This document shows, piece by piece, positions 17,901 to 59,879 of a stretch of 64,000 bases of DNA. The DNA is taken from the NCBI GenBank assembly GCA_036009605.1, contig DASYLL010000012.1, positions 4,810 to 68,809 on the forward strand, read 5' to 3'. Source of the DNA: Thermoanaerobaculia bacterium. GTDB lineage: Bacteria > Acidobacteriota > Thermoanaerobaculia > Gp7-AA8. Positions within the stretch are counted from its first letter, which is position 1, and every line of letters starts with the position of its first letter. The position numbers were made by a program, and so were the translations under genes. The notes under the pieces are model-generated. The model had not been told where the DNA came from, ran no database searches, and worked only from the letters and a program-made list of their open reading frames with translations.

Positions 17901-18262
17901 CTAGACCAGCCGCGCCGCAAACTCCCCGACGCTCCCGACTCGATCCGCCGGTTCTTCGCCAATGCGCGATCGATCGCATCACCTGCTTCGCGCAAAACAC
18001 GCGCACGTTCGCGAATCGGAAGCGGATTGATGTCGGGACCGACCGAGTTACCGTTCCACGTCACGACGCGATCGCCGATCGCTACACCCGCGCGCTCCGC
18101 CGGACTTCGGCCGCGTGACATGACTCGTGAAACTCAAAGCCACGAAGATCGCGGCGAGCACAACCTGGACCCGGCAAAACAACACCGGAGGCTTCGTTTT
18201 CATGAATGGCAGGGCCGCATGGATTGTAGCTGGAGCCCGCTGTGTTAGTGTCTTCTCTGCGT

Positions 18263-18337
18263 GCGGAGTTAGCTCAGCGGTAGAGCATCTCGCTTACACC
18301 GAGGGGGCCAGGGGTTCGAATCCCTTACTCCGCACCA
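18263..18337 (+). tRNA. tRNA-Val (anticodon TAC), CCA encoded
   Basis: Hand-folded cloverleaf: acceptor GCGGAGT/ACTCCGC, D arm GCTC-AGCGGTA-GAGC, anticodon arm TCTCG-CTTACAC-CGAGG, T arm AGGGG-TTCGAAT-CCCTT, discriminator A + CCA. Confidence 0.9.
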
Positions 18338-18366
18338 ACTTCATCGGCCTCCTTCACTCGCCTCCT

Positions 18367-18747
18367 ATGATCCGGCTCCTCAAACGCAAAGCCCGCCTCC
18401 TTGTTCTCGACGACGACACGTCCATCCAGAAACTCGTCGCCGCACTCCTCCGCCGCGCAGGCTACGCCGTCGACATCGTCAGCTCCGGCTCACAAGCGAT
18501 CGAGAGAATCGGCAAGCAGAAGTACGACGTGCTGCTGCTCGACGTGATGACGCCAACCGATGGCGGCTTCACCGTGATCAAGCATCTGAAGGAAGCGGAC
18601 CCGGCCCTGCTCAAGCGTGTCGTGCTGCTGACAGCTTCGCCGGATTCACTGCTGCGCGGGATGAAGGGCGATATCTATGGTGTGGTGCGGAAGCCGTTCG
18701 AAGCGGCGGAGCTCGTGGCGACCATCGCGCGCGTCATCGCGCAGTGA
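18367..18747 (+). CDS. Single-domain (CheY-like) response regulator
   Basis: ORF 18127..18747, trimmed to ATG at 18367 (the upstream part of the ORF runs through the tRNA). LLVLDDD...VLLLDVMTPTDGG...VRKPF. Confidence 0.85.
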   Translation: MIRLLKRKARLLVLDDDTSIQKLVAALLRRAGYAVDIVSSGSQAIERIGKQKYDVLLLDVMTPTDGGFTVIKHLKEADPALLKRVVLLTASPDSLLRGMKGDIYGVVRKPFEAAELVATIARVIAQ

Positions 18748-44825: not shown

Positions 44826-45031
44826 GAACTCCTCTTGAAATGGTCCCGACCCGGTATATGGACGGGTTGGACGGTAGCAGAGACTAGCGCTCACGTCTCG
44901 TGAAACGTGCGTCAGCCGAACGTAAAGATGCGCTGCGAACCGGCATTCGGGGCAAACCTGCGACAAGACCTACGGGTACGCCGTGCTACCCTGCCGCGCC
45001 CTCGGGGTCCTGCCTCATGAAGGAGAGTCTG

Positions 45032-46800: not shown

Positions 46801-48699
46801 ATGAAACGGGTTGCATTCGTGAAAAGCGATTCGAGCGGCCGCGAACATTTCGCGGCCGCCACGGATCTTCCGACCTTCCTCGCGCAAGCAGGCGAATTGA
46901 CGTGTGCGCAACGGCAACGGATCGTGGAGCAGGCGCTGATCCTGGTCGGAGAGAACTACGCGCACCTGCCGTTGAAGCGCGCCATGCACTCGATCGATCC
47001 CGTGCAGCGTCTGAGGTTGTTGCTTCAGACGCTGAAGGCGGCAGCGGAGCCCGACCAGCCGACCGAGATCGAGTTCCATCGCGAGATGACCGACATCTTC
47101 ATGTCGCTCCGCGATCTCCACACGAACTACCTCCTGCCCGCGCCGTACAACCAGATGACCGCTTTTCTGCCGTTCCTGGTGGAAGACTACGTTCACGCGG
47201 ATGGCCAGCGCGGATACGTCGTCTCGCACGTTGTAACCTGGTTCACGCATCCGACCTTCGTCCCGGGAGTGGAAGTCCTCCATTGGAACGGGATGCCGAT
47301 CGAGCGTGCGGTCTCCCAAAACGGGCAGCGGTATGCAGGCAGCAACCGAGAGGCACGACATGCCCGCGGCGTGGAGACCCTCACCATCCGCGCATTGCTT
47401 CTTGCACCGCCGCCTGATGAGGACTGGGTGATCGTCGGGTACGAGACCGGGACGGGCGAACGGCTGGAGATTCGGATGAACTGGCAGGTCACTCCGTCGA
47501 TCGCGAGCCGAGTCGATCCCGACTCCGCCGGTCGCGGGGCCTCGGTCGCGCTGGGCATCGACCTCGAGAACGAGATCATTCGCCGAATGCGGGCCGCGCT
47601 CTTTGCTCCCGAAGTCCTCGCCGCATCCCGCGAAACGGCAGCGCCGCTCGCAGCGCGCGATTCGCGCTATCCCGACATCTTCACTGCGAAGGAGGTCGTC
47701 ACTCCCTCGGGAACGTTCGGCTACCTCCGCATTCGGACGTTCAATCACTGGCCGCCCGAGCAGTTCGTCGGAGAGTTTCTTCGGCTGATCGCCCTTCTCC
47801 CGCAACGCGGGCTCATCATCGACGTCCGCGGCAACGGCGGCGGCGTCATCATGAATGGAGAACTGATCCTGCAGACGCTCACGCCACGGACCATCGAGCC
47901 GGAGCCGGTCCAGTTCATCAACACGCCTCGCAATCTCGAGATCTGTCGCCGCAACGGGCCGCAGTCGCAATGGACCGATCTTTCCGCATGGCGGGACTCG
48001 ATCGCTCAGGCGCTCCAGACCGGCGCCGTCTTCTCCGCGGGCTTTCCGATCTCCGATCCCGAAGAGTGCAACGCCATCGGCCAACGCTACTTCGGACCGG
48101 TCGTTCTGATCACCGACGCACTCTGCTACAGCACGACCGATATCTTCGCCGCAGGCTTTCAGGATCACGGCATCGGCACCGTCCTCGGCACAGACGGCAA
48201 CACAGGTGCGGGAGGCGCCAACGTCTGGGAACATCAATCCTTCGTAAGCGACATCCTTCCCGATTCCGGATACGAAGAATTGCCGAACGGAGCCGGCATG
48301 CGGATCTCCATTCGCCGGACGCTGCGCGTCGGCGGACACGCAGGAGCTCCCGTCGAGGACCTCGGCGTGATCCCGCAAGAGCGCCACTTCCTCACTCGCA
48401 ACGACGTCCTCCACGACAACGAAGATCTCATCCGAAACGCGGCTTCTCTGCTGGCCGCTCGCCCAGTGCGCGCGCTGAAGGTGAAGTTCGAGCGCATCTC
48501 CTCGACACACGCGAAAGTCATCGCAGAAACAGAAGGAATGACGCGCCTCGACGTTTATCTGGACGACCGCCCCAACCAATCCATCGAAGTGGAAAACGGC
48601 CTCGTGCAGTTCGACGCTCCGCTGGCCCGTACTCTGGAGCTGCGTGGATTCGACGGCGGACAACTGGCGGCGCGGTATCGGACAGAGATTCACGCATAA
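46801..48699 (+). CDS. Peptidase S41 family protein (CPAF/tail-specific-protease-like), no detectable signal peptide
   Basis: GLIIDVRGNGGG motif and LITDALCYSTTDIFAAGFQD Ser region. 25 nt after the metalloprotease gene. Confidence 0.75.
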   Translation: MKRVAFVKSDSSGREHFAAATDLPTFLAQAGELTCAQRQRIVEQALILVGENYAHLPLKRAMHSIDPVQRLRLLLQTLKAAAEPDQPTEIEFHREMTDIFMSLRDLHTNYLLPAPYNQMTAFLPFLVEDYVHADGQRGYVVSHVVTWFTHPTFVPGVEVLHWNGMPIERAVSQNGQRYAGSNREARHARGVETLTIRALLLAPPPDEDWVIVGYETGTGERLEIRMNWQVTPSIASRVDPDSAGRGASVALGIDLENEIIRRMRAALFAPEVLAASRETAAPLAARDSRYPDIFTAKEVVTPSGTFGYLRIRTFNHWPPEQFVGEFLRLIALLPQRGLIIDVRGNGGGVIMNGELILQTLTPRTIEPEPVQFINTPRNLEICRRNGPQSQWTDLSAWRDSIAQALQTGAVFSAGFPISDPEECNAIGQRYFGPVVLITDALCYSTTDIFAAGFQDHGIGTVLGTDGNTGAGGANVWEHQSFVSDILPDSGYEELPNGAGMRISIRRTLRVGGHAGAPVEDLGVIPQERHFLTRNDVLHDNEDLIRNAASLLAARPVRALKVKFERISSTHAKVIAETEGMTRLDVYLDDRPNQSIEVENGLVQFDAPLARTLELRGFDGGQLAARYRTEIHA

Positions 48700-51600
48700 C
48701 TGTACGGCAGCGTTCGCACGGCATCCGGCGAACCGTTGGCCATCTCGACGAAGCGACAGAGACCATTCACGAGTCGCATCTGCTTGGGCGTCTTGCACGC
48801 AACGTCGAGCAGTCGGGGGCTGGCGACGACCGTTGCGACGCAGCGAGCGCGCGAGATCGCAACGTTCAATCGATTGCGGCTGAAGAGAAACTCGATGTCG
48901 CGCGGAAGCTCGGCGGCGCTCGACGTGGCCATGCTGAAGAAAACGATCTGCGCCTCTCTCCCCTGAAATTTGTCGACCGTTCCGACCGGCACATCGCTCA
49001 ACCCAGCCTCGGAAAGGACATTCGTGATGCGACGCACTTGCGCGTTGTACGCGGCAACGATGAGGAAATTCGAGGGACGCAGCGGCGACACTCTTCCCTT
49101 CGAGTCGGTGAACGTGCCGCGCAGCATGCGTCGAATCTCTGCCGCGATTGCCTGCGCTTCTTCTTCCGAGGACTGTGCGTTGCCGACGTGCTCGACGGCC
49201 AGGAATCGCAATCCGGTTTCCACCACCCCGCCGATTGTCACGGCTTGATTCGCACACTCATCTGCAGATTCGAGTCGCGAGTCGTAGACGACCTCAGAAA
49301 CGAACTCGCAGACCTTCGGATGCATGCGCCGCGTGTGTCCGAGGAAGATGCCGCGATCGGGCGGAACGGTTGCGTGCTTGCCGAGAAGGTGTTCGAGAAC
49401 GGAGCCGCCGGCGCCGTCGGGATGTGCGCCTTGCGAGACCTGCGCGAGCTGCAACGGATCGCCGAGGAGGATCACATTGCGGGCGGCGGTCGAGACGGCG
49501 ATTGCGTTTGCGAGCGACACCTGTCCCGCTTCGTCGATGAAGAGATAGTCGAGAGTGCGGTCCATCGCGTCATCCGAGAAGAGCCAGGCAGTGCCGGCGA
49601 CGAGCGCGATCGCGGGATCGGCGCAAGCGCCGTTGCTGCTCGTCGGCTCGATCATCGGATTCGGCAGTTTCGACACGAAGATCGAATCCTCGCCGGTGCT
49701 GCTCTTCTTCAAACCGCGGAACCAGAAGTTTTTCTCGCGCGCGAACTCTTCGACCCGCTCGAGCAGATTGTGAATGGCCTTGTGTGAGTTCGATGTCACG
49801 CCGACGCGCTTTCCGGCGCGCAGCAGATCGACGATGACGTGCGCGCCGGTGTACGTCTTGCCGGAGCCCAGAGGTCCCTGCACAAACAGATACGAGTCGT
49901 CGAGATTGCGCGTGACCTCGGCGGGATCGTGCAGTGCCTCACCTTCCGCGAGACCGCGCACGCGCGGCGCGTGATTGAGGAGGATGTCGAGACCGGCGCG
50001 ATAGGGGGTACCGGACTCGACGACTGCTTTCGCGAAACGACGGATGGCTTTGCGAATGGGACCGCTGTTGATCGAGGGCTTCGGAATGAGGGCGATGGGA
50101 TGCGGCTGCTGCGCGAGCTTCGGTCCGCGACGAAGCGTGAGCACACCGGTCGCATCCTCGAGCGACTCGATCTCGCCCGCACTCTCGCCGTCGCGCGCGT
50201 CGCACACGACGTCGCCTTCATCAAACTTGTGTTCCTGCGGTTTGAAGCGGTACGTGAAGAGCAGTGACTTCTTCATCTTCACCGGCGCGACGGTCTCGTC
50301 GAGCATCAATCCCGCGATCGATTCGCTGTCCTCGAACAGCTCATCGGCCGTCATCTTCTGCCGCGCGAAGTACCACCACCACGCCGGCCGTTCTTCGCGC
50401 CGGTGGTAATAAAGAAGATGCGCGAGCAGCGGCTGCTCATCGATCAGTTGCGCGTGCAGAGCGGCGGTTTCTTCATCCTCGTCGCGTCGCTCTTCCTTCA
50501 GCGGCTGCGCCTGCTCCGAATCCTTCCACGCGACGTCGGCAGGCTTGATTGCCGCGAGCCACCGCTGCAGGCCGAGCACGGAAATGCAGTCCTCGCGGTT
50601 GTATCGCTCGATCGAGACGAGCATCGCCGGATCGTTCGTCTCCAGCCATTGCTCGTACGCGAGCACCGCGCCGCCCGCGTCGGCAACGCCTTCTTCTTCG
50701 CGTTGAAAGTAAAACGTCTCGACCTTCTTGAGGCCGTATCCGGAGTGCGAGATGCGCATCGACTGACGCACGATCGCAGAGAGATCGACGAACGCCTCCT
50801 GTCGCAGCAGATCATCGAGCTCGCGTTCGCGCGTGCCGTGTCGTCCCGTCAATCTTTTGAGCGTGGCCACTTCCATCGCACCGTAGTGATAGATGTGCGC
50901 ATCGGGATCCGCCGCGCGACGCGCCACGAGAAAGTCCATCACCTCGGCGAACGCCTCAGCCTCCGCCGCAGCGTTGTGAGCCCACCATGCGCGGTACTCG
51001 CTCTCGCTCCATGCAACGCCGAAGAGGTACGTCAGTCCCTCGCCGACGAACGGATCGCCTTCGACATCGAAGAACACATCGCCCGAGGACGGCCTCGGCA
51101 GACGGAGAAAGCCGCGCTCCGATTCCTGCGGCAGCAATTCGAACGTGTGAATGCCTGTACGCCGATGTTCGAGTTGCAAGCGCGCCTGATGCGCGAGGAC
51201 GCCGAGGTTCTCCGGCTGAATCCGAGGAACGCGCAACTCCGGCGGCACCTCGGCAAGCGCAGTCAGCGTCGTTACGCCCCCTTTCTCCAGCCGCGTGGCC
51301 TGCGTGCGGCGGATGTTCGCAACGAGTGAAAGATGGTCGACGTTGTTCCAATGCTTCCAGCAATGTGCCGACCAATCGCAGAGCGCGCAGAACTCGACCG
51401 GATACGGCGCGGGCGCGTCGCCACGTCCGATGAATGCTTCGACGGATGCGCGGACATGACGGTAGTACGCGGCGTACTCGGCGACGATGAAGGAGACGCG
51501 CTCGTTCGTGCCGAGGATGATGTGCATCGACTCGGGAGCGACGCCCTGCAGGCGTGCGAGGTGCGCGCTGTAATCGGACAGCTGTAGAAGAAAGTGAGCC

Positions 51601-52040
51601 TTCACGGCGCGCGCGAGTTTCGTGTCGAGGACTTCGTAACTCCAGTCGCCGAGGATCGAAGGGCGTTCGACGCGCTCGAGGAGATCGGCGTAGCCAACCC
51701 AGCGGCCGTCGAAGAACGCGGCCTGATAGATCGCGTCCGCGCCGCCGCGCATCGCGTCGAGCGTCGCGGCTTCGGCGTGGCGCAGATCCGACGGAAGCCA
51801 GTCGGGACGATCGATGGTAACGACGCGTTTGCCGCTTGCATGGAGAGTGGCCAGATACGCGTGCTCGTGCTCATCGCCCTTCTCTGCGATCAGATCGGTC
51901 CATGCAGACGGAGGCCGTGTCGCGAGCGGTTTGATCACGCCGCTCTTGGTCCCGTGATCGAGAAACGTCGCATGCTCGCAGCGCACGTACTTCGTGAGAT
52001 CGCCCGTGGCGAAGAGCAGAGTCGAACCGGCGTATCGCAT
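48690..52040 (-). CDS. RecB-like nuclease (TM0106-type PD-(D/E)xK + RNase-H-like exonuclease domain) fused to an SF1 DNA2/Upf1-like helicase (1116 aa)
   Basis: ORF 48690..53147, trimmed to MRYAGSTLLFATGDLTKYVRCEH (ATG at 52040). YEVLDTKLAR nuclease core, FFDVEGDP...YNREDC exonuclease-like. Helicase Walker A GPLGSGKTYT, Walker B FIDEAGQ, later motifs VDKFQGREAQIV, RLNVAISRAR. Confidence 0.85.
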   Translation of the reverse strand: MRYAGSTLLFATGDLTKYVRCEHATFLDHGTKSGVIKPLATRPPSAWTDLIAEKGDEHEHAYLATLHASGKRVVTIDRPDWLPSDLRHAEAATLDAMRGGADAIYQAAFFDGRWVGYADLLERVERPSILGDWSYEVLDTKLARAVKAHFLLQLSDYSAHLARLQGVAPESMHIILGTNERVSFIVAEYAAYYRHVRASVEAFIGRGDAPAPYPVEFCALCDWSAHCWKHWNNVDHLSLVANIRRTQATRLEKGGVTTLTALAEVPPELRVPRIQPENLGVLAHQARLQLEHRRTGIHTFELLPQESERGFLRLPRPSSGDVFFDVEGDPFVGEGLTYLFGVAWSESEYRAWWAHNAAAEAEAFAEVMDFLVARRAADPDAHIYHYGAMEVATLKRLTGRHGTRERELDDLLRQEAFVDLSAIVRQSMRISHSGYGLKKVETFYFQREEEGVADAGGAVLAYEQWLETNDPAMLVSIERYNREDCISVLGLQRWLAAIKPADVAWKDSEQAQPLKEERRDEDEETAALHAQLIDEQPLLAHLLYYHRREERPAWWWYFARQKMTADELFEDSESIAGLMLDETVAPVKMKKSLLFTYRFKPQEHKFDEGDVVCDARDGESAGEIESLEDATGVLTLRRGPKLAQQPHPIALIPKPSINSGPIRKAIRRFAKAVVESGTPYRAGLDILLNHAPRVRGLAEGEALHDPAEVTRNLDDSYLFVQGPLGSGKTYTGAHVIVDLLRAGKRVGVTSNSHKAIHNLLERVEEFAREKNFWFRGLKKSSTGEDSIFVSKLPNPMIEPTSSNGACADPAIALVAGTAWLFSDDAMDRTLDYLFIDEAGQVSLANAIAVSTAARNVILLGDPLQLAQVSQGAHPDGAGGSVLEHLLGKHATVPPDRGIFLGHTRRMHPKVCEFVSEVVYDSRLESADECANQAVTIGGVVETGLRFLAVEHVGNAQSSEEEAQAIAAEIRRMLRGTFTDSKGRVSPLRPSNFLIVAAYNAQVRRITNVLSEAGLSDVPVGTVDKFQGREAQIVFFSMATSSAAELPRDIEFLFSRNRLNVAISRARCVATVVASPRLLDVACKTPKQMRLVNGLCRFVEMANGSPDAVRTLPYSYA

Positions 52041-52118
52041 TGCACACGGATCGACACGAACGCGCGGCGACGGTGGCGTGACGCCCCGTTTTCGCGCGGA
52101 GCGTGTCTTGACGATGGA

Positions 52119-54236
52119 ATGTTGCCGACGGAGCTCGAGCGTGTGTTGCAGGCGTCGATCGCACGCCGACAGTGGACCGACCGCGGAAAACGCCGGGCGG
52201 AGAGCCCGTCGTTCCAGTGGATCGCGCAAGGCGGCAGCGCGAACGTGCATGGCTATGCGACAGGCGACTTCGTCTACATCGGCAACGGCGCTGGGACCGA
52301 ACCTTCGGCGATCGATCCGCGTCTGCCGATCGACGCCGCGTATCCGAACACGTCCGGCGAACAGATGCCGTACTGGCCGGCCTATGACTCGATCCCCGCG
52401 GAATGCCGTGCCGCGTATCTGCAGTGGCTGCACGGCGGACGCACGGATCCGTACGTCGCCATCGGATACGTCTTCGTCTTCTTCTACGGCCTCGAACGCC
52501 GCGTCTACGACTTCATCGCGCGCCGCGGCTCGAACGCGGACGAAGTTCTCGCCATCGCGAACGAAGTGGCTCGTCTGTACGCGCTGCACGCGAACCGCAG
52601 CGGCTCGTTCGAACGCTACGCGGAAGAGCTGCTCGATCTGATCGAGTTGATCGAACCGCGCGCGCGAACGATTCCGCGTGAGATCACGATCCAGCCCGGA
52701 TACGGCGTCCCGCGCCGCATCGCTATCGCACTCGGTGAGCTTGCGGTTGCAGAACAGCCGGTTCCCGCAGGACTCGCGCTCGATTGGCTGCGGTCGATCT
52801 GGTATTTCAACATGCCGGCCATACGCTGCGCGGACGAATTCGAACTGCTCTTTCACATCCGCTACGCGAAACGTTTCGGGCAGGGACTTTATCTGCAGCC
52901 GGGCCGCACGTTCCTCGACTTCACCTACCAACCCGCCAGTGCCGCACTCGACGCGATCCGCGTCAACCAGCGCGACATTCCCGACGTCACGCAGCTCGCT
53001 CGACCACGCACGAAACTCACCGAGCTCACCCAGGAATGCAGCAGCGCACTCGACGCCTTCAGCCGTCTCCTCGGCAAGAATCCCAGCGCACGCGAATCGC
53101 TCGCGGCATTCGCACTGCTGCCCGATGAGCTGATCGAGGGCACGCATTCCGCCGACGCGAAATCACTCGCTGCGCTCGTCACCTCGCGTCTCGACGAGCA
53201 CGGCCGCGCGCAACTCGGCGCGGCTGAGCTGCTGCAATTCGTGCGCATCGCGAAGCCGGAGAAGATCGCGAAGAACGAAGCGATGCTGCTCGCGCAGGCG
53301 CTCGAAAAACTCGGCTACGGCATCGAGCCCGACGTGCGCCTCGGCGGTCCGACGTTCGAGAGCGACGGCCGCGTGATCGTTTTTCGCCGCCTCCCCGACT
53401 GTCCGTCCACTGCATCGGATGAATACGCAACGGCCACGATCTGCATGCGCCTCGGCACGATGGTCAGTGCCGCCGACGACGACGTTTCTGAACAGGAACG
53501 CGCACTCCTCGAGCGACACATCGCCGAAGCGCTCCTGCTCTCCGCGGGCGAACGCCAACGCCTCCGCGCGCACCTCGCGTGGCTGATCGAAACAAATCCC
53601 GGAACCGCGGGCATGAAGAAACGCCTCGCCGCACTGTCGCACGACGCGCGGCATCACATCGGACGACTGCTCGTCAGCATCGCCACGACCGACACGCGCG
53701 TCGATCCGCGCGAGATGAAGATCCTCGAAAAGCTCTACGACCTCATCGGACTCAATGAGACCGATCTCTATCGCGACGTCCACTCCGCGCAATCCGCGGA
53801 CGATGAGCCGCTCGTGATCGACACGCCCGCGTCAGTCTCGAAGCGATTCACCATTCCTCCGAAGCCGCAGCCAACACCCGGCCTCGACATGTCGCGCGTC
53901 CGACTCCGCATCGCGGAAACGCGCCAGGTGTCCGCGCTTCTCGGCAGCATCTTCGTCGAAGACGAAGCACCTGCGCGCATCGCACCCATCGCTGCGCAAG
54001 CAAACACGATCGGCACACTCGATGCCGCGCATTCGGAACTGCTGCGCCGTCTTGCGCAATGCGAGAGCTGGACGCGCGACGAAGTCGAGCGCATCACGTT
54101 GGAACTGTCGCTGATGACCGACGGCGCGCTCGAAGCGATCAACGACTACGCCTACGCGACCGCGGATGAGCCGTTCTGGGAAGACGACGATCCGATCGCG
54201 ATCAACGCCGCAGTAGCGAGGAACTTCATTCGATGA
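52119..54236 (+). CDS. TerB-N / TerB / TerB-C three-domain protein (SngA-like)
   Basis: ORF 51594.., trimmed to ATG at 52119. TerB-N: MPYWPAYDSIPAECRAAYLQWLHGGRTDPYVAIGYVFVFFYGLERR. Central TerB-like helical bundle: MVSAADDDVSEQERALLERHI...VSIATTDTRVDPREMKILEKLYDLIGL. TerB-C: LDAAHSELLRRLAQCESWTRDEVERI...INDYAY. Confidence 0.8.
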   Translation: MLPTELERVLQASIARRQWTDRGKRRAESPSFQWIAQGGSANVHGYATGDFVYIGNGAGTEPSAIDPRLPIDAAYPNTSGEQMPYWPAYDSIPAECRAAYLQWLHGGRTDPYVAIGYVFVFFYGLERRVYDFIARRGSNADEVLAIANEVARLYALHANRSGSFERYAEELLDLIELIEPRARTIPREITIQPGYGVPRRIAIALGELAVAEQPVPAGLALDWLRSIWYFNMPAIRCADEFELLFHIRYAKRFGQGLYLQPGRTFLDFTYQPASAALDAIRVNQRDIPDVTQLARPRTKLTELTQECSSALDAFSRLLGKNPSARESLAAFALLPDELIEGTHSADAKSLAALVTSRLDEHGRAQLGAAELLQFVRIAKPEKIAKNEAMLLAQALEKLGYGIEPDVRLGGPTFESDGRVIVFRRLPDCPSTASDEYATATICMRLGTMVSAADDDVSEQERALLERHIAEALLLSAGERQRLRAHLAWLIETNPGTAGMKKRLAALSHDARHHIGRLLVSIATTDTRVDPREMKILEKLYDLIGLNETDLYRDVHSAQSADDEPLVIDTPASVSKRFTIPPKPQPTPGLDMSRVRLRIAETRQVSALLGSIFVEDEAPARIAPIAAQANTIGTLDAAHSELLRRLAQCESWTRDEVERITLELSLMTDGALEAINDYAYATADEPFWEDDDPIAINAAVARNFIR

Positions 54237-55522
54237 TCAAACCAAAGCATCGCGAATCGATCATTCAATCGCTGCGCGCCGGTGTCGTGCCGCGCGCGGG
54301 ACAGCAACACATCCAGGTCGGCCGCCACGACGAAGTGAAGGCGCTCGTCACGGACATCGATCGCGTGGCAGACGCCGGCTCATCGATCCGCTTCATCATC
54401 GGCGAGTACGGTTCCGGCAAAACGTTCTTCCTGAATCTCATCCGCTCCATTGCGCTCGAACGCAACCTCGTCACGATCAACGCCGACCTCTCGCCCGATC
54501 GCCGCCTGCACGCGACCGGCGGACAGGCGCGATCGCTGTACGCGGAGTTGATGCGCAATCTCGCGACGCGCTCGAAACCGGATGGCGGCGCGTTGGCGAG
54601 CGTCGTCGAGAAGTTCGTCTCCAGCGCACTCGCCGAAGCGCGCGCCGCGGAAATCGGCGTCGACGCGGTAATTCGCACGCGACTGGCATCGCTCCAGGAG
54701 CTCGTCGGCGGCTACGACTTCGCGCACGTCATCGAGGCGTACTGGCGCGCACACGACAGCGGCAACGAAGACCTGAAGGAATCGGCGCTGCGCTGGCTGC
54801 GCGGCGAGTACACGAGCAAAACCGACGCGCGCACGCACCTCGGCGTCCGCACGATCGTCAGCGATGCGAACGTCTACGATCAGCTGAAGCTCTTCTCGCG
54901 CTTCGTACGTCTCGCGGGATACGGCGGATTGCTGATCGTGCTCGACGAGCTCGTGAATCTCTACAAGCTCGCGAACACGCAGGCGCGCAACAGCAACTAC
55001 GAACAGATCCTGCGCATTCTCAATGACATGCTGCAGGGATCCGCCGAAGGCATGGGCGTCCTCCTCGGCGGCACGCCGGAGTTTCTGCTCGACACGCGCC
55101 GCGGTCTCTACAGCTACTCGGCGCTGCAATCGCGACTCGCGCAGAACCAGTTCGCGACGAACGGTCTCGTCGACTACAGCGGTCCCGTATTGCCGCTCTC
55201 GCAGCTCACAAAGGAAGACCTGTACGTGTTGCTCGCGAACATCCGCAACGTATACGCGCTCGGCGATGCCTCGAAATACCTCATCCCCGACGACGCGCTC
55301 GAGGCGTTCATGCATCACTGCTCGACGCGCATCGGCGACGCCTATTTCCGCACGCCGCGCAACACCGTGACCGCATTCGTGAGTCTGCTCTCCGTGCTCG
55401 AACAGAACGCCGAAGCGAAGTGGCACGAGCTGCTCGGAGCGGTCACGATTCCGACCGACCGCAATCCCGATCTCGAAGGCGTCGCGGACGACGATGACGA
55501 TCTCGCCTCCTTCCGGCTCTGA
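54233..55522 (+). CDS. P-loop ATPase, DUF2791/BrxD-like (SngB-like)
   Basis: The start overlaps the upstream stop (ATGA). Walker A GEYGSGKTF, Walker B GLLIVLDELVNL. ~430 aa. Confidence 0.8.
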   Translation: MIKPKHRESIIQSLRAGVVPRAGQQHIQVGRHDEVKALVTDIDRVADAGSSIRFIIGEYGSGKTFFLNLIRSIALERNLVTINADLSPDRRLHATGGQARSLYAELMRNLATRSKPDGGALASVVEKFVSSALAEARAAEIGVDAVIRTRLASLQELVGGYDFAHVIEAYWRAHDSGNEDLKESALRWLRGEYTSKTDARTHLGVRTIVSDANVYDQLKLFSRFVRLAGYGGLLIVLDELVNLYKLANTQARNSNYEQILRILNDMLQGSAEGMGVLLGGTPEFLLDTRRGLYSYSALQSRLAQNQFATNGLVDYSGPVLPLSQLTKEDLYVLLANIRNVYALGDASKYLIPDDALEAFMHHCSTRIGDAYFRTPRNTVTAFVSLLSVLEQNAEAKWHELLGAVTIPTDRNPDLEGVADDDDDLASFRL

Positions 55523-57710
55523 CGGCTCGTCGTCGTTCGAGTGGCTGCACGAGCGCGTGCGCCGCTGGATCTGGGACCAGCAATGGTCCGAGCTCCGCGA
55601 CGTGCAGGAGACGGCCATCCGCACGATCCTCGGCACCAACGGCGACGCGATCATTACCGCTGCGACCGCAGCCGGAAAAACAGAAGCCGCGTTTCTGCCG
55701 ATCTGCTCGACGCTCGTCGACGATGAGACTTCGACCGGCGTGCAGGTGTTGTACATCGGACCGCTGAAGGCACTGATCAACGATCAATGGCGCAGGCTCG
55801 ACGGTCTGTGTGAATCGCTTGAGATTCCGGTGCATCGCTGGCATGGCGATGTGACCTCGTCCGCGCGCATGCGACTGATCCGGCAACCCGACGGCATCCT
55901 GCTGATCACACCCGAATCTCTCGAAGCGATGTTCGTACGACGCGGCTCCGAAGTCGGGCGCATCTTCGCGGGATTGCGCTTCGTCGTCATCGACGAACTG
56001 CACGCATTCATCGGCAGCGAGCGCGGCATGCAGTTGCAATCGCTGCTGCATCGCATCGAGCTCGTGTTGCACCGGACCGTGCGAAGAATCGGACTGAGCG
56101 CGACGCTCGGTGACATGACCATTGCCGCCGATTTTCTTCGTCCTCCGAATCGCCGCACGACACCACCGGAAGTCGTGAAATCCGAGGAAGCGGGCGCCGG
56201 GATGAAACTGAAGCTCTACGGTTTCCGTCGCGCGCTGAAGCCCGAGATCGAAGTTCCCGAGGAAGACGAAGAAGACGAAACCGCGCGCTCGATCGCACAG
56301 CATCTCTTCAAAAACCTGCGTGGCGCAAACAATCTCGTCTTCGCAAACGCGCGCGGCAGCGTCGAAAAGTACACCGATCTTCTTTCGCGCATGTGCGAGT
56401 CCGCGTCCCTGCCGCAGGAGTTCTTCGCGCATCACGGCAGCCTCTCGCGCGAGCTGCGCTTCGACGTCGAAGATCAACTCAAGCGGGGCGATCGACCGCT
56501 CACCGTGATCTGCACGAGCACGCTCGAAATGGGTATCGACATCGGTGCCGTCACGAGCGTCGCGCAGATCGGCCCGCCGCCGAACGTCGCCTCGCTACGC
56601 CAACGCCTCGGCCGCTCCGGTCGTCGCGGCGAGCCCGCGGTGCTGCGCCTGTACATCGAAGAAGCGACCGTCACCGAACGCAGCTCGCCACAGGAAGCGA
56701 TCCGCGCCACGCTCGTCGAGACGATCGCGATGATGAACCTTCTGCTCGAGAAATGGGTCGAACCGCCGCCTGCCGGCATGCTGCACGGCTCGACGTTCGT
56801 GCAGCAATTTCTCTCGCTCATCGCGCAACACGGCGGCGTGTCTCCCTCGGACGCCTACGCGATGCTCTGCGCCGGCGGACCGTTTCACGAGCTATCGAAG
56901 CCAATGTTCATGGGCCTGCTGCGCACGTTGAGCTCGCACGAGCTCATCGAGCAAACGAGCAATCAGGAGCTGCACCTCGGCGCGAAGGGCGAGAAGTACG
57001 TCAACACGCACGACTTCTACACGGCCTTCTTCACCGCCGACGAATATCGCCTCATGACCGCGGGAACGAACCTCGGCACGCTGCCGATCGTGAATCCGAT
57101 CGACGAAGGCTCGTTCCTCATCTTCGCGGGACGGCGATGGCGCATCGTTTCCGTCGATCAGGAGAAGCGCGTCATCGATCTCGTCGCGGCAGGCGGAGGT
57201 CGCGTGCCGATCTTCGACGGTGCGTCGCGCGGCAACGTACACGATCGCGTGCGTCGCGAGATGCTCGCCATCTACACGACCACGGACGTTCCGCGTTACC
57301 TCGACGCGACCGCCTCGGATCTCCTGCACGAAGGACGCGAAAACTTCGCGCGCTATGCACTCGATCGCACGTCGTTCATCCGCGCCGGTGATGGTGCGCT
57401 GTACTTTCCATGGTACGGCAGCCTGGCGATGAACACGCTCGTGCAGCAGTTCGCGGCGCGCGGCATTCGCGTCTCGGCCGAAGGTCCCGCGATCGCTGTC
57501 GAGAAATGGTCGCCGGAGAAACTGCGCGACGCAGTCGACGCGTGCGAGAGCGAGCGGCCGGTCGACACACTCGCTCTCGCGGCAAACGTCAAAAACAAAG
57601 AACAGGAAAAGTGGGATTGGGCACTCGACGAAGAGACGCTCTGCGCGTCGTATGCGAGCCGAAGCCTCAGTCGAAATCCCCTCAGAGGCGCGCTTCGAAA
57701 ATCAGATTGA
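55494..57710 (+). CDS. Lhr-like DExH-box SF2 helicase (SngC-like)
   Basis: Motif I AATAAGKTEAAFLP, motif II VVIDELHAF, motif III LSATLG, motif VI QRLGRSGRRG. Overlaps the ATPase gene by 29 nt. Confidence 0.85.
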   Translation: MTISPPSGSDGSSSFEWLHERVRRWIWDQQWSELRDVQETAIRTILGTNGDAIITAATAAGKTEAAFLPICSTLVDDETSTGVQVLYIGPLKALINDQWRRLDGLCESLEIPVHRWHGDVTSSARMRLIRQPDGILLITPESLEAMFVRRGSEVGRIFAGLRFVVIDELHAFIGSERGMQLQSLLHRIELVLHRTVRRIGLSATLGDMTIAADFLRPPNRRTTPPEVVKSEEAGAGMKLKLYGFRRALKPEIEVPEEDEEDETARSIAQHLFKNLRGANNLVFANARGSVEKYTDLLSRMCESASLPQEFFAHHGSLSRELRFDVEDQLKRGDRPLTVICTSTLEMGIDIGAVTSVAQIGPPPNVASLRQRLGRSGRRGEPAVLRLYIEEATVTERSSPQEAIRATLVETIAMMNLLLEKWVEPPPAGMLHGSTFVQQFLSLIAQHGGVSPSDAYAMLCAGGPFHELSKPMFMGLLRTLSSHELIEQTSNQELHLGAKGEKYVNTHDFYTAFFTADEYRLMTAGTNLGTLPIVNPIDEGSFLIFAGRRWRIVSVDQEKRVIDLVAAGGGRVPIFDGASRGNVHDRVRREMLAIYTTTDVPRYLDATASDLLHEGRENFARYALDRTSFIRAGDGALYFPWYGSLAMNTLVQQFAARGIRVSAEGPAIAVEKWSPEKLRDAVDACESERPVDTLALAANVKNKEQEKWDWALDEETLCASYASRSLSRNPLRGALRKSD

Positions 57711-58749
57711 ACGGCGTCTCCGCCGCGCGCCGGAAATGCGAGAAGCCCGCTTTGCGGAACACCTCGGCGAGACGTGCCTCCCCTGCTTGCGCGCCGAGGA
57801 CCAGTTGGCCGCCGTCGGAGATCGCATGGGCACTGCAGATGGCGGCCGAGGCGGCGTAGTACATCCGCGCGACCGGCGAGATGTTGTCTTCTACGCGATC
57901 GCCCGCGAACGGCTCGATGAGCATGACCGTGCCGCCGGGAGCGAGCGCGCCGGCGGCATAGCGCGCGGCGCCAACCGGATCGCCCATGTCGTGCAATGCA
58001 TCGAAGAAACAAATGAGGCCGTAGCCGTCGGCGGGATAGTCGACGGCGCGGGCGGTATCGAAATGCACGCGATCGCCGAGACCGGCATTCGATGCGAGTC
58101 GCGTCGCTTCATCGATCGAAGGCGCGTGAACGTCGAAGCCGTGAAAACGCGATTGCGGAAACGCGTGCGCCATCAGCATCGTCGAGTGACCGTGTCCGCA
58201 GCCGACATCGGCGACGGTGATTCCGGCTTCGAGCTGATTCACGACACCTTCGACCGCGGGCAGCCACTGCGAAAGGAGACTGCCGCTGTAGGCGTTGCGA
58301 TAGAAGGCCGCGACGCCGCTGTGGAGACGCGCGTCGTGATCCCCCCAACTGACGCCGGCGCCGGTGCGAAACGCGTCGAGCGTTCTCTCTTCGTCGAACC
58401 ACATCGACGCCGGCACGTTCCACGCCGGTGGAAGAAACAGCGGACTCTCTTCGTCGGCCAGGACGATCGCCTGCTCGGGAAACAGCTCGTAGGTATCGCT
58501 CACCGCGTGGTAACCGACGTAGCCTCCCGCGACCTGCGAGCCCAGCCACTCGCGGACATATCGCTCCGCGCATCCGCTGCGCGACGCGACCTCGTGAGAG
58601 GTCAGCGGTCCCGCTCCGGACATCGCTTTGTAGAGACCGAGTTTGCTGCCGACGCTGACCATCACGCCGCCATAACCCGCGGAGAGATCGCCTATGGCGC
58701 GGACGAGAAACGATTCCAGTTTGGTCTGATCGATTGCTTGTGCGTTCAT
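57682..58749 (-). CDS. Class I SAM-dependent methyltransferase with N-terminal wHTH-like dimerisation region
   Basis: ORF 57682..58863, trimmed to MNAQAID (ATG at 58749, GGAG SD). SAM motif VADVGCGHGHS. FFDALHDMGDP. Confidence 0.8.
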   Translation of the reverse strand: MNAQAIDQTKLESFLVRAIGDLSAGYGGVMVSVGSKLGLYKAMSGAGPLTSHEVASRSGCAERYVREWLGSQVAGGYVGYHAVSDTYELFPEQAIVLADEESPLFLPPAWNVPASMWFDEERTLDAFRTGAGVSWGDHDARLHSGVAAFYRNAYSGSLLSQWLPAVEGVVNQLEAGITVADVGCGHGHSTMLMAHAFPQSRFHGFDVHAPSIDEATRLASNAGLGDRVHFDTARAVDYPADGYGLICFFDALHDMGDPVGAARYAAGALAPGGTVMLIEPFAGDRVEDNISPVARMYYAASAAICSAHAISDGGQLVLGAQAGEARLAEVFRKAGFSHFRRAAETPFNLIFEARL

Positions 58750-58856
58750 CTTTGTTGCTCCTGCTCGCCGATTTGAAGTTGTCCGGCGACGCACCTCATA
58801 ATCGGATCGATGGCGCGTCCGCGGGAGTGGCGGAATCGCCCTGAAAAGGTTCATTC

Positions 58857-59879
58857 GTGCCACAACCAGCCAGCGTCGGATCGAATCCCCGTCACGTCAG
58901 CCTCGTCGCCCTGCCCGATGCAGCGGTCTCCACGCTGTTCGGCATCTACGACGTCATGAACGGCTTCAGCAACTTTCTCGGCTCCGGCCAGAGCGCGCCG
59001 TTTCGCATCGAGATCGTTGGCGAGACAGCGGGTCGCGTTGCACTGGCGAGCGGCGTATCGGTCGACGTGCAGCGCACCATCGACACGATCGAGACGACCG
59101 ACATCGTGATCGTTCCGTCGCTGTTCCTGCAGCCGGGCGGATGGAAGAAGGAGCGCTATCCGCGTCTCGTCGAATGGCTGCGCGCGATGCACGAACGCGG
59201 CGCGCTCCTCTGTTCCGCGTGCTCCGGAATCTTTCTTCTGGCGGAGACAACGTTGTTCGACGGAAAAGACGCGACCGTGCACTACGGCTACGCGCGGTCC
59301 TTCACGACGACGTATCCGGCTGTTCCCATTCATCCGGAACGCGTGCTCGTGATCGCCGGCGCGCGAGAGGAGCTCGTGAGCTCGGGCGCATCGACGACGT
59401 GGCACGATCTCGTGCTCTATCTCATCGCGCGCTATGCCGGCGCGACCACCGCGCAGGACGTCGCGCGCATGTTCGCGCTGCAATGGCATCAGGACGGCCT
59501 CACGCCGTACATGATTTTCGAAGGGAAGAGCGATCACGGCGACGGCGACATTCAGAGCGCGCAGCAATGGCTGCGCGAGCATTTCTCGGTGGCCAGTCCG
59601 GTCGAGGAAATGGTCCGGCAATCGAGACTCGCCGAGCGGACGTTCAAACGCCGCTTTGTCGCGGCGACCGGACTCACGCCGATTGCATACATCCAGCGCC
59701 TGCGCATCGAAGATGCGAAGCGGCGCCTCGAGCGTACCGAGGCGCCGGTCGACGAGATCAGCTGGCGCGTGGGCTATGAGGATCCGGCGTTCTTTCGGCG
59801 GCTGTTTCGACGCACGACCGGACTCGCACCGGGCGCGTATCGCAAGCGTTTCCGGATTCCTGATTTCGCGCGGACGTAA
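58857..59879 (+). CDS. GlxA-family transcriptional regulator (DJ-1/PfpI domain + AraC-type HTH)
   Basis: GTG start. LLCSACSGIFLLAE nucleophile-elbow-like. C-terminal IAYIQRLRIEDAKRRLE...ISWRVGYEDPAFFRRLFRR. Confidence 0.85.
   Translation: MPQPASVGSNPRHVSLVALPDAAVSTLFGIYDVMNGFSNFLGSGQSAPFRIEIVGETAGRVALASGVSVDVQRTIDTIETTDIVIVPSLFLQPGGWKKERYPRLVEWLRAMHERGALLCSACSGIFLLAETTLFDGKDATVHYGYARSFTTTYPAVPIHPERVLVIAGAREELVSSGASTTWHDLVLYLIARYAGATTAQDVARMFALQWHQDGLTPYMIFEGKSDHGDGDIQSAQQWLREHFSVASPVEEMVRQSRLAERTFKRRFVAATGLTPIAYIQRLRIEDAKRRLERTEAPVDEISWRVGYEDPAFFRRLFRRTTGLAPGAYRKRFRIPDFART

What the first reader, a model, noticed from the sequence alone, without database searches (positions are those of the whole stretch)
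52119..57710. Three-gene TerB-N/TerB/TerB-C + P-loop ATPase + Lhr-like helicase operon (Shango-type candidate anti-phage system)
- Seen: three co-directional genes with coupled junctions (ATGA overlap at 54233-54236; 29-nt overlap at 55494-55522).
- Gene 1 carries the TerB-N hallmark (YWPAY...YLQWL...GYVFVFFYGLERR), a central TerB-like bundle and a TerB-C tail.
- Gene 2 has Walker A GEYGSGKTF and Walker B LIVLDE.
- Gene 3 is a DExH helicase (AAGKTEA, DELH, SAT, QRLGRSGRRG).
- Established: comparative genomics predicted this triad as a TerB-associated DNA-processing/conflict module. It was later named Shango (SngA/B/C) and reported to protect against phage. Its mechanism and trigger are unknown.
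- From memory, the ATPase/helicase pair also resembles the BrxD/BrxHI pair of BREX variants.
- Inference: this is a Shango-like system in an Acidobacteriota-like genome. It is the strongest defence-system candidate in the window.
Basis: partly seen in the sequence, partly recalled or inferred. Interest (0 to 1): 0.72.

Follow-up and report, generated by a model that had tools for sequence, protein, structure and literature searches.

The report
Shango anti-phage operon, with nuclease-helicase neighbour
The three genes are a textbook copy of Shango, a known bacterial anti-virus system whose mechanism is unknown, so the find is ordinary; the one new lead is that in this bacterial lineage it is inherited together with a neighbouring DNA-cutting and unwinding enzyme.

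Summary
Three co-directional, overlapping genes lie at 52119-54236, 54233-55522 and 55494-57710.

- **Identity.** They match the PADLOC profiles SngA (5e-83), SngB (1e-180) and SngC (3e-263). Pfam finds TerB_N, TerB and TerB_C in gene 1, BrxC_BrxD in gene 2, and DEAD plus Helicase_C in gene 3. All ATPase and helicase motifs are intact.
- **Synteny.** The order SngA-SngB-SngC is kept in 80 of 80 related genome loci from many phyla. SngB-like genes occur on 690 plasmids.
- **Classification.** This is a canonical Shango system in a Thermoanaerobaculia (Acidobacteriota) metagenome-assembled genome. It is a new member of a known kind, and standard defence annotators would call it automatically.
- **Mechanism.** The Shango mechanism remains unknown in the literature. 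The triad has no nuclease. SngC models as an Lhr-core-like translocase. SngB belongs to the BrxD family, which others have proposed to be a helicase loader.
- **New lead.** A divergent 1116-aa nuclease-helicase (48690-52040, minus strand) sits 78 bp upstream. It travels with Shango in 8 of the 10 closest relatives, although all other flanking genes differ. Its more distant homologues never sit next to Shango (0 of 84).
- **Other lineages.** Other Shango loci lie next to AddAB-, SbcCD-, RmuC- or RecBCD-type genes. This hints at cooperation with DNA-end processors.

The parts
52119..54236 (+). sngA: a 705-aa soluble short-form protein with four regions. They are TerB_N (aa 38-224, nt 52230-52790), a conserved middle region with no Pfam family (aa 225-442), TerB (aa 443-550, nt 53445-53768) and TerB_C (aa 588-700, nt 53880-54218).
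   Evidence: - Pfam and PADLOC matches.
- The AF2 model has mean pLDDT 87.6, and only the TerB bundle matches a PDB fold (2h5n, 2ou3).
- Invariant acidic residues D453, E478, D525 and E532 lie within the TerB region, with E460 nearly invariant. The GLERR motif (aa 124-128) is also invariant across 70 homologues.
- No TM-like segment is present.
54233..55522 (+). sngB: a 429-aa P-loop ATPase of the BrxC_BrxD family (PF10923). Walker A is at nt 54401-54427 and Walker B at nt 54932-54949.
   Evidence: - Pfam BrxC_BrxD 5.6e-155; PADLOC SngB 1.2e-180 against BrxD 7e-49.
- NCBIfam BrxD scores 162 bits, below its cutoff of 350.
- Identity is 60-89% across 80 loci and 690 plasmids.
55494..57710 (+). 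sngC: a 738-aa DExH SF2 helicase. Motif I is at nt 55668-55688, II at 55992-56003, III at 56097-56105 and VI at 56601-56630. The conserved C-terminal half (aa ~395-738) has no Pfam family; the whole chain superposes on the Lhr helicase core.
   Evidence: - PADLOC SngC 3e-263.
- phmmer against PDB: Lhr 5v9x/7lhl at 2e-33 and MrfA 6znp.
- The AF2 model has pLDDT 86.6 and pTM 0.85. The best Foldseek match is the Lhr core 5v9x, over the full length (E 3e-28, TMq 0.66).
- No nuclease domain was detected.
- The C-terminal half carries many invariant residues.
52041..52118 (.). A 78-bp divergent intergenic region between the nuclease-helicase gene and sngA. It is presumed to hold promoters for both directions. 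It contains an imperfect inverted repeat at 52061-52073 / 52086-52098.
   Evidence: - Start codons were fixed by homology.
- The inverted repeat is 13 nt and 77% complementary.
- The sigma-70 consensus scan found no promoter, so the promoter assignment is inference only.
48690..52040 (-). Candidate accessory gene, not part of the defined Shango system. It encodes an 1116-aa nuclease-helicase with three enzymatic parts:
- a TM0106-family RecB/Cas4-like PD-(D/E)XK nuclease with four Cys;
- an RNase_H_2 domain resembling a DEDDy exonuclease;
- an SF1 AAA_11/AAA_12 helicase.
   Evidence: - NCBIfam TIGR03491 1.6e-76; Pfam RNase_H_2, AAA_11 and AAA_12.
- Invariant residues: D119, E136, D139, K141; C218, C221, C227; D325, E327, Y480, D484; G722-K728; D836-E837.
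- It lies next to Shango, divergently oriented, in 8 of the 10 closest genome loci. The other flanking genes of those loci differ.
- It is co-directional with Shango in the Tepidiformaceae loci L046 and L053.
- None of 84 more distant homologue loci carries Shango.

Best explanation
**What it is.** The locus is a complete, canonical Shango system (sngA-sngB-sngC). It is a translationally coupled operon in a Thermoanaerobaculia genome and is predicted to act against phage.

**Shown here.** The three proteins are full-length orthologues of SngA, SngB and SngC with intact catalytic motifs. The triad is strictly co-inherited across phyla.

**Inferred mechanism (about 40% confidence as a whole).**
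1. SngB is an ATPase of the BrxD family, which others classify as ORC/Cdc6-type AAA+. It assembles on or loads SngC onto foreign DNA. This is the role proposed for the homologous, tightly linked BrxD-BrxHI pair of type 2 BREX.
2. SngC is an Lhr-core-like 3'-5' translocase. It would unwind or strip replication and recombination intermediates of the invader.
3. SngA is the sensor or regulatory subunit. Its TerB bundle keeps invariant acidic residues, which may bind a metal. It would gate the motor in response to an infection cue. In many close relatives SngA is anchored in the membrane by an extra N-terminal two-helix segment. Here it is soluble.
4. The triad has no nuclease, so DNA destruction, if it occurs, must come from a partner. 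In this clade the co-inherited, divergently transcribed nuclease-helicase at 48690-52040 is the obvious candidate.
For: **Identity**
- PADLOC SngA 5e-83, SngB 1e-180 and SngC 3e-263, each over essentially the whole profile.
- Pfam TerB_N, TerB and TerB_C; BrxC_BrxD; DEAD and Helicase_C.
- A Klebsiella plasmid SngA has the same domain architecture.

**Operon**
- The junctions overlap by 4 nt and 29 nt.

**Co-inheritance**
- 80 of 80 genome loci keep the A-B-C order, wherever the contig allows.
- 690 plasmids carry an SngB-like gene at mostly 60-68% identity.

**Function of the family**
- Shango from E. coli and P. aeruginosa PA14 reduces phage plating by about 10-100 fold.

**Helicase**
- The closest structures by sequence and by fold are Lhr and MrfA.
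- Hachiman authors place SngC with BrxHI, DruE and DpdJ in an immune SF2 clade.

**Loader idea**
- BrxD and BrxHI form a tightly linked pair, and BrxD has been proposed to be a helicase loader.

**Sensor idea**
- Invariant acidic residues lie within the TerB region.
- 47 of 112 homologues have a long N-terminal extension, and 45 of those have TM-like segments.

**Partner nuclease**
Against: - No experiment exists for this locus or for any Acidobacteriota Shango.
- The mechanism steps rest on analogy only. No biochemical study of any Sng protein was found in the library.
- The protection reported for homologues is modest.
- The locus is not in an obvious defence island. Its neighbours are peptidases, a methyltransferase and regulators, and base composition is unremarkable.
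- The nuclease-helicase partner is absent from 2 of the 10 closest loci and from 68 of the other 70 loci. It therefore cannot be an obligatory part of Shango.
Confidence: 0.9

Rival explanations
1. In this lineage the functional unit has four genes, not three. The divergent nuclease-helicase would be the effector arm of a Shango variant. SngABC would sense and open foreign DNA, and the neighbour would degrade it. More generally, Shango would work together with DNA-end-processing machines.
For: - The neighbour lies next to Shango, divergently oriented, with 78-200 bp intergenic spacers in short-form loci. This holds in 8 of the 10 closest genome loci, at 60-71% identity.
- At least 31 of 53 close NH homologues lie on contigs of the same length as SngA homologues.
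- Genes outside the four-gene block are not conserved between these loci.
- An independent juxtaposition occurs in Tepidiformaceae. There the order is SbcD-SbcC-NH-SngA-SngB-SngC, all co-directional. The block is duplicated at 99% identity, and the duplication ends about 380 bp after sngC.
- The most recurrent neighbour families around 80 Shango loci are all DNA-end processors:
  - NH, 10 loci;
  - AddAB-like, 5 loci, plus the Methylorubrum plasmid pCMU01;
  - SbcC/SbcD-like, about 5 loci;
  - RmuC, 3 loci;
  - RecC/RecB, 1 locus.
- All catalytic residues of the neighbour are invariant.
- PA14 Shango also has 'a large multi-domain helicase' directly upstream.
Against: - 60 of 80 Shango loci have none of these neighbours.
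- L004 and L010, within the same clade, lack NH.
- None of 84 NH homologue loci at 34-54% identity has any Shango gene.
- PA14 Shango protected when cloned without the upstream helicase.
- The gene is transcribed divergently, not within the operon.
- Within one clade, adjacency can be plain vertical inheritance.
- The PA14 helicase family could not be checked.
Confidence: 0.25
2. The locus is a DNA-repair or stress module rather than an immune system. An Lhr/MrfA-like helicase with an ATPase and a TerB stress protein would act on the cell's own damaged DNA. The neighbouring exonuclease-helicase would play the part that MrfB plays for MrfA.
For: - SngC's closest solved relatives, Lhr and MrfA, are repair helicases.
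- The NCBIfam best hit is the ligase-associated DNA-damage-response DEXH helicase family, although far below its cutoff (230 against 850 bits).
- Repair genes recur next to Shango.
- The window has no clear defence-island signature.
Against: - Homologous systems have a measured anti-phage phenotype.
- The system is common on conjugative plasmids, with 690 records of which 541 are conjugative.
- Other Shango loci sit beside Kiwa, Hachiman and SIR2 genes.
- Genome context is variable even among close relatives. This is typical of mobile defence genes and not of core repair genes.
Confidence: 0.08
3. The ATPase-helicase pair is a remnant or satellite of a BREX type 2 system (BrxD plus BrxHI), and the TerB protein is unrelated to it.
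For: - Gene 2 hits Pfam BrxC_BrxD at 6e-155, and PADLOC BrxD and BrxHI at 7e-49 and 5e-118.
- BrxD and BrxHI form a tightly linked pair in BREX type 2.
Against: - The Sng profiles score far higher than the Brx profiles: 599 against 165 bits, and 874 against 393 bits.
- NCBIfam BrxD is below its cutoff (162 against 350 bits).
- No PglX, PglZ, BrxC or PglW is among the ten neighbouring genes scanned.
- SngA is fused into the operon by an ATGA overlap and accompanies the pair in 80 of 80 loci.
Confidence: 0.02

Closest known systems
Shango (SngABC) of E. coli and Pseudomonas aeruginosa PA14 (Millman et al. 2022; Johnson et al. 2023)
   Same: - It has the same three proteins in the same order, with full-length matches to the PADLOC SngA, SngB and SngC profiles.
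- SngA has the same TerB_N / TerB / TerB_C architecture as a Klebsiella plasmid copy.
- The catalytic motifs are intact.
   Different: - The host phylum is Acidobacteriota (Thermoanaerobaculia).
- SngA is only about 35-40% identical to copies from other phyla, whereas SngB is 60-70% identical.
- In this clade the operon is linked to a divergent TM0106-type nuclease-helicase.
- No phenotype has been tested.
BrxD-BrxHI pair of type 2 BREX
   Same: [quoted passage not shown]
- The helicase is a homologous Lhr-like SF2 enzyme.
- In both cases the two genes form a tightly linked pair.
   Different: - No methyltransferase (PglX), PglZ, BrxC or PglW is present nearby.
- The pair is joined to a TerB_N/TerB_C protein instead.
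- It falls below the NCBIfam BrxD equivalog cutoff.
Lhr and MrfA (YprA) DNA-repair helicases
   Same: - SngC superposes on the Lhr helicase core over its full length (5v9x, TMq 0.66) and on MrfA.
- MrfA works with a separate exonuclease, MrfB (from my own knowledge). That parallels a helicase with a nuclease partner.
   Different: - Scores are far below the NCBIfam Lhr-type equivalog cutoffs (198 against 849 bits, and 127 against 1496 bits).
- No DEAD_assoc or DUF1998 domain was detected.
- SngC is always encoded together with SngA and SngB.
Hachiman (HamAB) and other helicase-plus-nuclease defence systems
   Same: An SF2 helicase is paired with a nuclease. The helicase acts as the DNA-state sensor. 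This is the working model for a Shango-plus-NH unit.
   Different: - In Hachiman the nuclease is an obligatory operon partner.
- Here the nuclease-helicase is divergent and specific to one lineage. It is absent from most Shango loci.
Dna2 / AddB / Cas4-type nucleases with an iron-sulfur cluster, fused to SF1 helicases (comparison for the neighbour gene)
   Same: - It has a PD-(D/E)XK motif and the pattern C...CxxCx5C.
- It has an SF1 (AAA_11/AAA_12) helicase in the same polypeptide.
   Different: - It carries an extra RNase_H_2 domain, resembling a DEDDy exonuclease, between the nuclease and the helicase.
- It belongs to the uncharacterised family TIGR03491 (TM0106).
- Binding of an iron-sulfur cluster is inferred from the Cys pattern only.

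Membership tests
Shango (PADLOC / DefenseFinder definition) | An SngA component (TerB_N ... TerB_C protein) is present | tested here: met
   - PADLOC SngA 5.2e-83: protein aa 26-697 match profile positions 30-517 of 528.
- Pfam TerB_N 4e-39, TerB 1e-10 and TerB_C 1e-21.
Shango (PADLOC / DefenseFinder definition) | An SngB component (DUF2791 / BrxC_BrxD-family ATPase) is present, with an intact P-loop | tested here: met
   - PADLOC SngB 1.2e-180, matching profile positions 6-439 of 439.
- Walker A GEYGSGKTF and Walker B LIVLDE are present.
Shango (PADLOC / DefenseFinder definition) | An SngC component (DExH SF2 helicase) is present, with intact motifs | tested here: met
   - PADLOC SngC 3e-263, matching profile positions 3-709 of 720.
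- Motifs I, II, III and VI are present.
Shango (PADLOC / DefenseFinder definition) | The three genes are contiguous and co-directional, and this arrangement is conserved in relatives | tested here: met
   - The junctions overlap by 4 nt and 29 nt.
- The order A-B-C is kept in 80 of 80 loci, wherever the contig extends.
Shango (PADLOC / DefenseFinder definition) | The system confers resistance to phage | not testable with these tools
   This has been shown only for the E. coli and P. aeruginosa PA14 homologues.
BREX type 2 | The core genes PglX methyltransferase, PglZ and BrxC (and PglW) lie in the same locus | tested here: not met
   None was found among the ten neighbouring genes between 40208 and 62889, using Pfam and PADLOC.
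BREX type 2 | Gene 2 reaches the BrxD equivalog threshold | tested here: not met
   NCBIfam NF033438 scores 162.3 bits against a cutoff of 350.
Tellurite-resistance (ter) gene cluster | TerB is encoded with TerZ/A/C/D/E-type genes | tested here: not met
   There is no TerC or TerD family hit among the neighbours. TerB occurs only as an internal domain of SngA.
Lhr / ligase-associated DEXH repair helicases | The protein reaches the equivalog score and has the Lhr accessory domains | tested here: not met
   - TIGR04121 scores 230 against 850 bits, PRK13767 198 against 849 and PRK09751 127 against 1496.
- There is no DEAD_assoc hit.
- The fold is nevertheless Lhr-core-like.
TM0106-family RecB-like nuclease (for the neighbour gene) | The protein matches TIGR03491 above its cutoff and has a conserved PD-(D/E)XK motif | tested here: met
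   - It scores 258 bits against a cutoff of 97.
- D119, E136, D139 and K141 are invariant in 18 homologues.

The most novel reading that the evidence does not exclude
Shango may be the sensing and unwinding half of a two-part system that hands invader DNA to a DNA-end-processing nuclease. In Thermoanaerobaculia this partner has become fixed as a fourth, divergently transcribed gene at 48690-52040. That gene encodes a Cas4/RecB-like nuclease, an exonuclease domain and an SF1 helicase. Other lineages place AddAB-, SbcCD-, RmuC- or RecBCD-type genes next to Shango for the same purpose. If so, the unknown effector step of Shango would be explained.
Probability: 0.22. Interest if true: 0.6.

Novelty: new member of a known kind. 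Interest (0 to 1): 0.3.

Why it matters
- **As it stands.** The locus adds one more Shango system, from an uncultured Acidobacteriota lineage, to a family already catalogued in many phyla and on hundreds of plasmids. That has little weight on its own.
- **The open question.** How Shango stops phage is unknown, and the triad has no recognisable effector.
- **The lead.** This clade keeps Shango and a three-activity nuclease-helicase together while everything around them changes. In other phyla Shango repeatedly sits beside AddAB-, SbcCD-, RmuC- and RecBCD-type genes.
- **What it makes testable.** These facts give a concrete hypothesis: Shango may work through, or guard, DNA-end processing.
- **A second handle.** Close relatives have either a membrane-anchored or a soluble SngA. 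Comparing the two forms offers a test of the 'membrane surveillance' idea.

Tried and rejected
1. **The 880-aa ORF (51594-54236) as gene 1.** Rejected. Its first 175 codons are the antisense of the neighbour's conserved N-terminus, and homologues start at the PT(D/E)LER motif.
2. **The 1485-aa minus-strand ORF (48690-53147).** The real gene starts at 52040, at the conserved MR[YFL]xG... N-terminus.
3. **An unusual inserted domain in SngA.** I suspected this because the 705-aa protein maps to a 528-column profile. Rejected. Klebsiella plasmid and cyanobacterial SngA have the same TerB_N / TerB / TerB_C layout.
4. **Solved structures.** A PDB sequence search with SngA and SngB gave no hits. Foldseek with the SngA model matched only the TerB bundle, so the folds of TerB_N, the middle region and TerB_C stay unassigned.
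5. **A hidden nuclease in the SngC C-terminus.** None was found. The whole chain superposes on the Lhr core.
6. **The downstream wHTH-methyltransferase (57682-58863) as a modification partner.** It is absent from all 80 related loci. Its only PADLOC hit is a generic methyltransferase match.
7. **Mobile-element or island signals.**
   - GC content shows no shift.
   - No integrase is among the scanned neighbours.
   - The nearest tRNA is more than 28 kb away.
8. **Promoter and terminator scan.** It found no sigma-70-like promoter. Terminator-like hits are within chance.
9. **NH as a general Shango partner.** Rejected by the reverse test, with 0 of 84 loci positive.
10. **Anantharaman et al. 2012.** The paper could not be opened. 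Its prediction is cited only through the papers that cite it.
11. **The PA14 'large multi-domain helicase'.** It could not be retrieved, so its family is untested.

Full report
**1.

The window has three co-directional ORFs at 52119-54236 (705 aa), 54233-55522 (429 aa) and 55494-57710 (738 aa).
- Genes 1 and 2 share ATGA at 54233-54236. Genes 2 and 3 overlap by 29 nt.
- GC3 is 0.76-0.83 for these frames.
- The mechanical ORF holding gene 1 opens at 51594. Its upstream 175 codons are the antisense of a divergent gene. That gene's start at 52040 is fixed by a conserved N-terminus, MR[YFL]xGxxLxL, seen in eight related loci.
- Short-form homologues of gene 1 start at the same PT(D/E)LERxLQ motif, so ATG 52119 is the likely start.
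- Identical proteins are deposited for a Thermoanaerobaculia bacterium MAG.

**2. What the genes are**

Gene 1:
- Pfam gives TerB_N (4e-39, aa 38-224), TerB (1e-10, aa 443-550) and TerB_C (1e-21, aa 588-700).
- The PADLOC SngA profile matches at 5e-83.

Gene 2:
- It matches Pfam BrxC_BrxD over the whole model (6e-155).
- PADLOC SngB scores 1e-180 (599 bits), against 165 bits for BrxD.
- The NCBIfam BrxD equivalog scores 162 bits against a cutoff of 350.

Gene 3:
- It has DEAD and Helicase_C domains.
- PADLOC SngC scores 3e-263 (874 bits), against 393 bits for BrxHI.

I suspected an extra domain in SngA, because 705 residues map onto a 528-column profile. A Klebsiella plasmid SngA and a cyanobacterial SngA have the same TerB_N / TerB / TerB_C layout, so the architecture is canonical.

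**3.

- A pattern scan of one genome per species with an SngA alignment found 388 relatives. In the best 80 loci, SngA, SngB and SngC lie in that order on one strand in every case where the contig extends far enough.
- The loci come from Acidobacteriota, Cyanobacteria, Planctomycetota, Myxococcota, Actinomycetota, Chloroflexota, Nitrospirota and others.
- Outside the Thermoanaerobaculia clade, SngB is 61-73% identical to the window protein, SngC 43-54% and SngA 34-41%.
- SngB-like genes occur on 690 plasmids. Of these, 449 are from Klebsiella and 144 from Salmonella, and 541 are conjugative.
- The triad is therefore a single, widely mobile unit.

**4. Structure-level evidence**

- *SngC.* The model has pLDDT 86.6 and pTM 0.85. 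It superposes over its full length on the Mycobacterium smegmatis Lhr helicase core (5v9x, E 3e-28, TMq 0.66), and next on MrfA. Sequence search agrees. No nuclease fold appears. The C-terminal half carries many invariant residues.
- *SngA.* The model has pLDDT 87.6. It matches only TerB-type bundles in the PDB (2h5n, 2ou3). TerB_N, the conserved middle region (aa 225-442) and TerB_C have no solved counterpart.
- *SngA conservation.* Across 70 homologues the invariant residues include GLERR (aa 124-128) and the acidic residues D453, E478, D525 and E532, which lie within the TerB region. E460 is nearly invariant. Whether these acidic residues form a metal site is inference.
- *No solved relatives.* SngA and SngB have no relatives in the PDB by sequence.

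**5. What is known**

- Shango was described in E. coli and in P. aeruginosa PA14. It gives about 10-100 fold reductions in plating for several phages.
- Its mechanism is still described as unknown. Only a 'membrane surveillance' speculation exists, based on TerB.
- SngC has been grouped with BrxHI, DruE and DpdJ in an immunity-specific SF2 clade.
- A 2026 comparative study classifies BrxD as an ORC/Cdc6-type AAA+ ATPase. It reports that BrxD and BrxHI form a tightly linked pair. It proposes that BrxD loads or activates BrxHI on DNA. That study does not mention Shango.

**6. Most likely mechanism**

Identity as Shango is close to certain. The mechanism below is inference, and I put it at about 40% as a whole.
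1. SngB oligomerises and loads or activates SngC on foreign DNA.
2. SngC translocates 3'-5' like Lhr and disrupts replication or recombination intermediates.
3. SngA is the sensor or regulator.
4. Because the triad has no nuclease, any DNA destruction must come from a partner.

**7.

A divergently transcribed gene begins 78 bp upstream of sngA. It spans 48690-52040 on the minus strand and encodes 1116 aa.
- It matches TIGR03491, 'TM0106 family RecB-like putative nuclease', at 258 bits against a cutoff of 97. It also has Pfam RNase_H_2 and the SF1 helicase domains AAA_11 and AAA_12.
- These residues are invariant in 18 homologues:
  - the PD-(D/E)XK residues D119, E136, D139 and K141;
  - the Cas4/AddB-like Cys pattern C218, C221 and C227, with C21 nearly invariant;
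  - residues resembling a DEDDy exonuclease, D325, E327, Y480 and D484;
  - Walker A and Walker B.
- It lies next to Shango, divergently oriented, in 8 of the 10 closest genome loci, at 60-71% identity.
- At least 31 of 53 close homologues lie on contigs of the same length as SngA homologues.
- Genes outside this four-gene block are not shared between those loci. The block therefore persists while its surroundings change.
- In a Tepidiformaceae (Chloroflexota) genome a 41%-identical homologue sits co-directionally in the series SbcD-SbcC-NH-SngA-SngB-SngC. That block is duplicated at 99% identity, and the duplication ends about 380 bp after sngC.

Evidence against a general link:
- Three homologues at 49-54% identity are standalone genes.
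- None of 84 loci holding homologues at 34-54% identity has any Shango gene.
- Two loci within the clade lack the neighbour.
- PA14 Shango worked when cloned without its upstream 'large multi-domain helicase'.

I rate a functional four-gene unit at about 0.2-0.25.

**8. A wider pattern, recorded as a lead**

- Unbiased clustering of ORFs within 7 kb of the 80 Shango loci gave these as the most recurrent families: the nuclease-helicase, AddA-like and AddB-like proteins, SbcC-like and SbcD-like proteins, and RmuC.
- A Pfam census of 79 immediate neighbours agrees. It adds RecC 33 nt downstream of sngC in a Vicinamibacterales genome.
- On the Methylorubrum plasmid pCMU01, Shango is followed directly by an AddB-like and an AddA-like gene.
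- About 20 of 80 loci show such a neighbour, from roughly ten independent juxtapositions. The other 60 show none.
- Kiwa (KwaB) and Hachiman (HamA) genes also occur beside Shango. A plain defence-island effect is therefore not excluded.

**9. Rivals**

- *BREX remnant.* Contradicted by the profile scores, by the missing core genes and by the fixed presence of SngA.
- *Ter cluster.* Contradicted by the absence of other ter genes.
- *Repair module.* Not excluded by sequence. It fits poorly with the phenotype of homologues, the plasmid carriage and the variable context.

**10. Verdict**

This is a new member of a known kind, and standard tools would annotate it automatically. Interest is modest (0.3). 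The value lies in the clade-specific nuclease-helicase linkage, the recurrent end-processing neighbours, and the soluble versus membrane-anchored SngA forms. These are handles on an unsolved mechanism.

Noticed in passing
Related proteins P0003, P0009-P0014, P0016 and others (homologues of window 52119-54236); loci L002, L005, L008: 47 of 112 SngA homologues carry an N-terminal extension of about 300 aa that the window protein lacks. This includes many at 60-69% identity. In 45 of the 47 the extension holds TM-like hydrophobic segments, usually two adjacent ones. Soluble and membrane-anchored forms therefore coexist within one clade, and both forms keep the nuclease-helicase neighbour.
   Followed up: partly
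L011, L013, L018, L021, L032, L082 (AddAB-like); L040, L041, L046, L053, L012 (SbcC/SbcD-like); L010, L011, L022 (RmuC); L074 (RecC/RecB): In unrelated phyla and on a Methylorubrum plasmid, Shango loci repeatedly lie directly beside DNA-end-processing genes. These are the most recurrent neighbour families found. About 60 of 80 loci have none of them.
   Followed up: partly
L046 and L053 (same Tepidiformaceae chromosome, OZ253575.1): Two copies of a block of at least 16 kb are about 99% identical. The block holds SbcD-SbcC-NH-SngA-SngB-SngC. Similarity ends about 380 bp after the sngC stop. The left end lies beyond the fetched flank.
   Followed up: partly
window 42933-44966 (-) and L059 15764-17698: A Castor/Pollux-type RCK ion-channel protein lies 7 kb upstream of Shango in the window. 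A 50%-identical homologue lies directly downstream of Shango in a Thermoanaerobaculaceae genome. This could be chance or a remnant of synteny.
   Followed up: no
window 57682-58863 (-): A gene for a winged-HTH plus SAM methyltransferase (Rv2258c-like) converges on sngC. It overlaps the 3' end of sngC by 29 nt. It is absent from all 80 related loci, so it is not part of the system.
   Followed up: yes
window 40208-41476 (-): A 422-aa protein has a Peptidase_S74 domain (intramolecular chaperone of endosialidase). From my own knowledge, this domain is typical of phage tail-fibre and tailspike proteins. It may be a prophage remnant or a surface protein.
   Followed up: no
window 8332-8418 (-) and 18263-18337 (+): ARAGORN calls tRNA-Gly and tRNA-Val at positions that lie inside ORFs with coding-like GC3 (8082-8801 and 18127-18747). 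Either the ORF call or the tRNA call is probably wrong at each site.
   Followed up: no
L081 (Klebsiella pneumoniae plasmid NZ_CP129856.1) 6946-12497 and 13374-19299: On this plasmid sngA is missing from the distributed gene table, but it is intact as a 678-aa ORF. Shango is followed by a 1425-aa protein with no Pfam match and then by a SIR2-family gene.
   Followed up: partly
L084 7302-12280: A standalone homologue of the nuclease-helicase is flanked on both sides by small DUF433 genes that look like toxin-antitoxin pairs. A GmrSD-type gene lies nearby. The nuclease-helicase family may itself be a defence or island gene.
   Followed up: no
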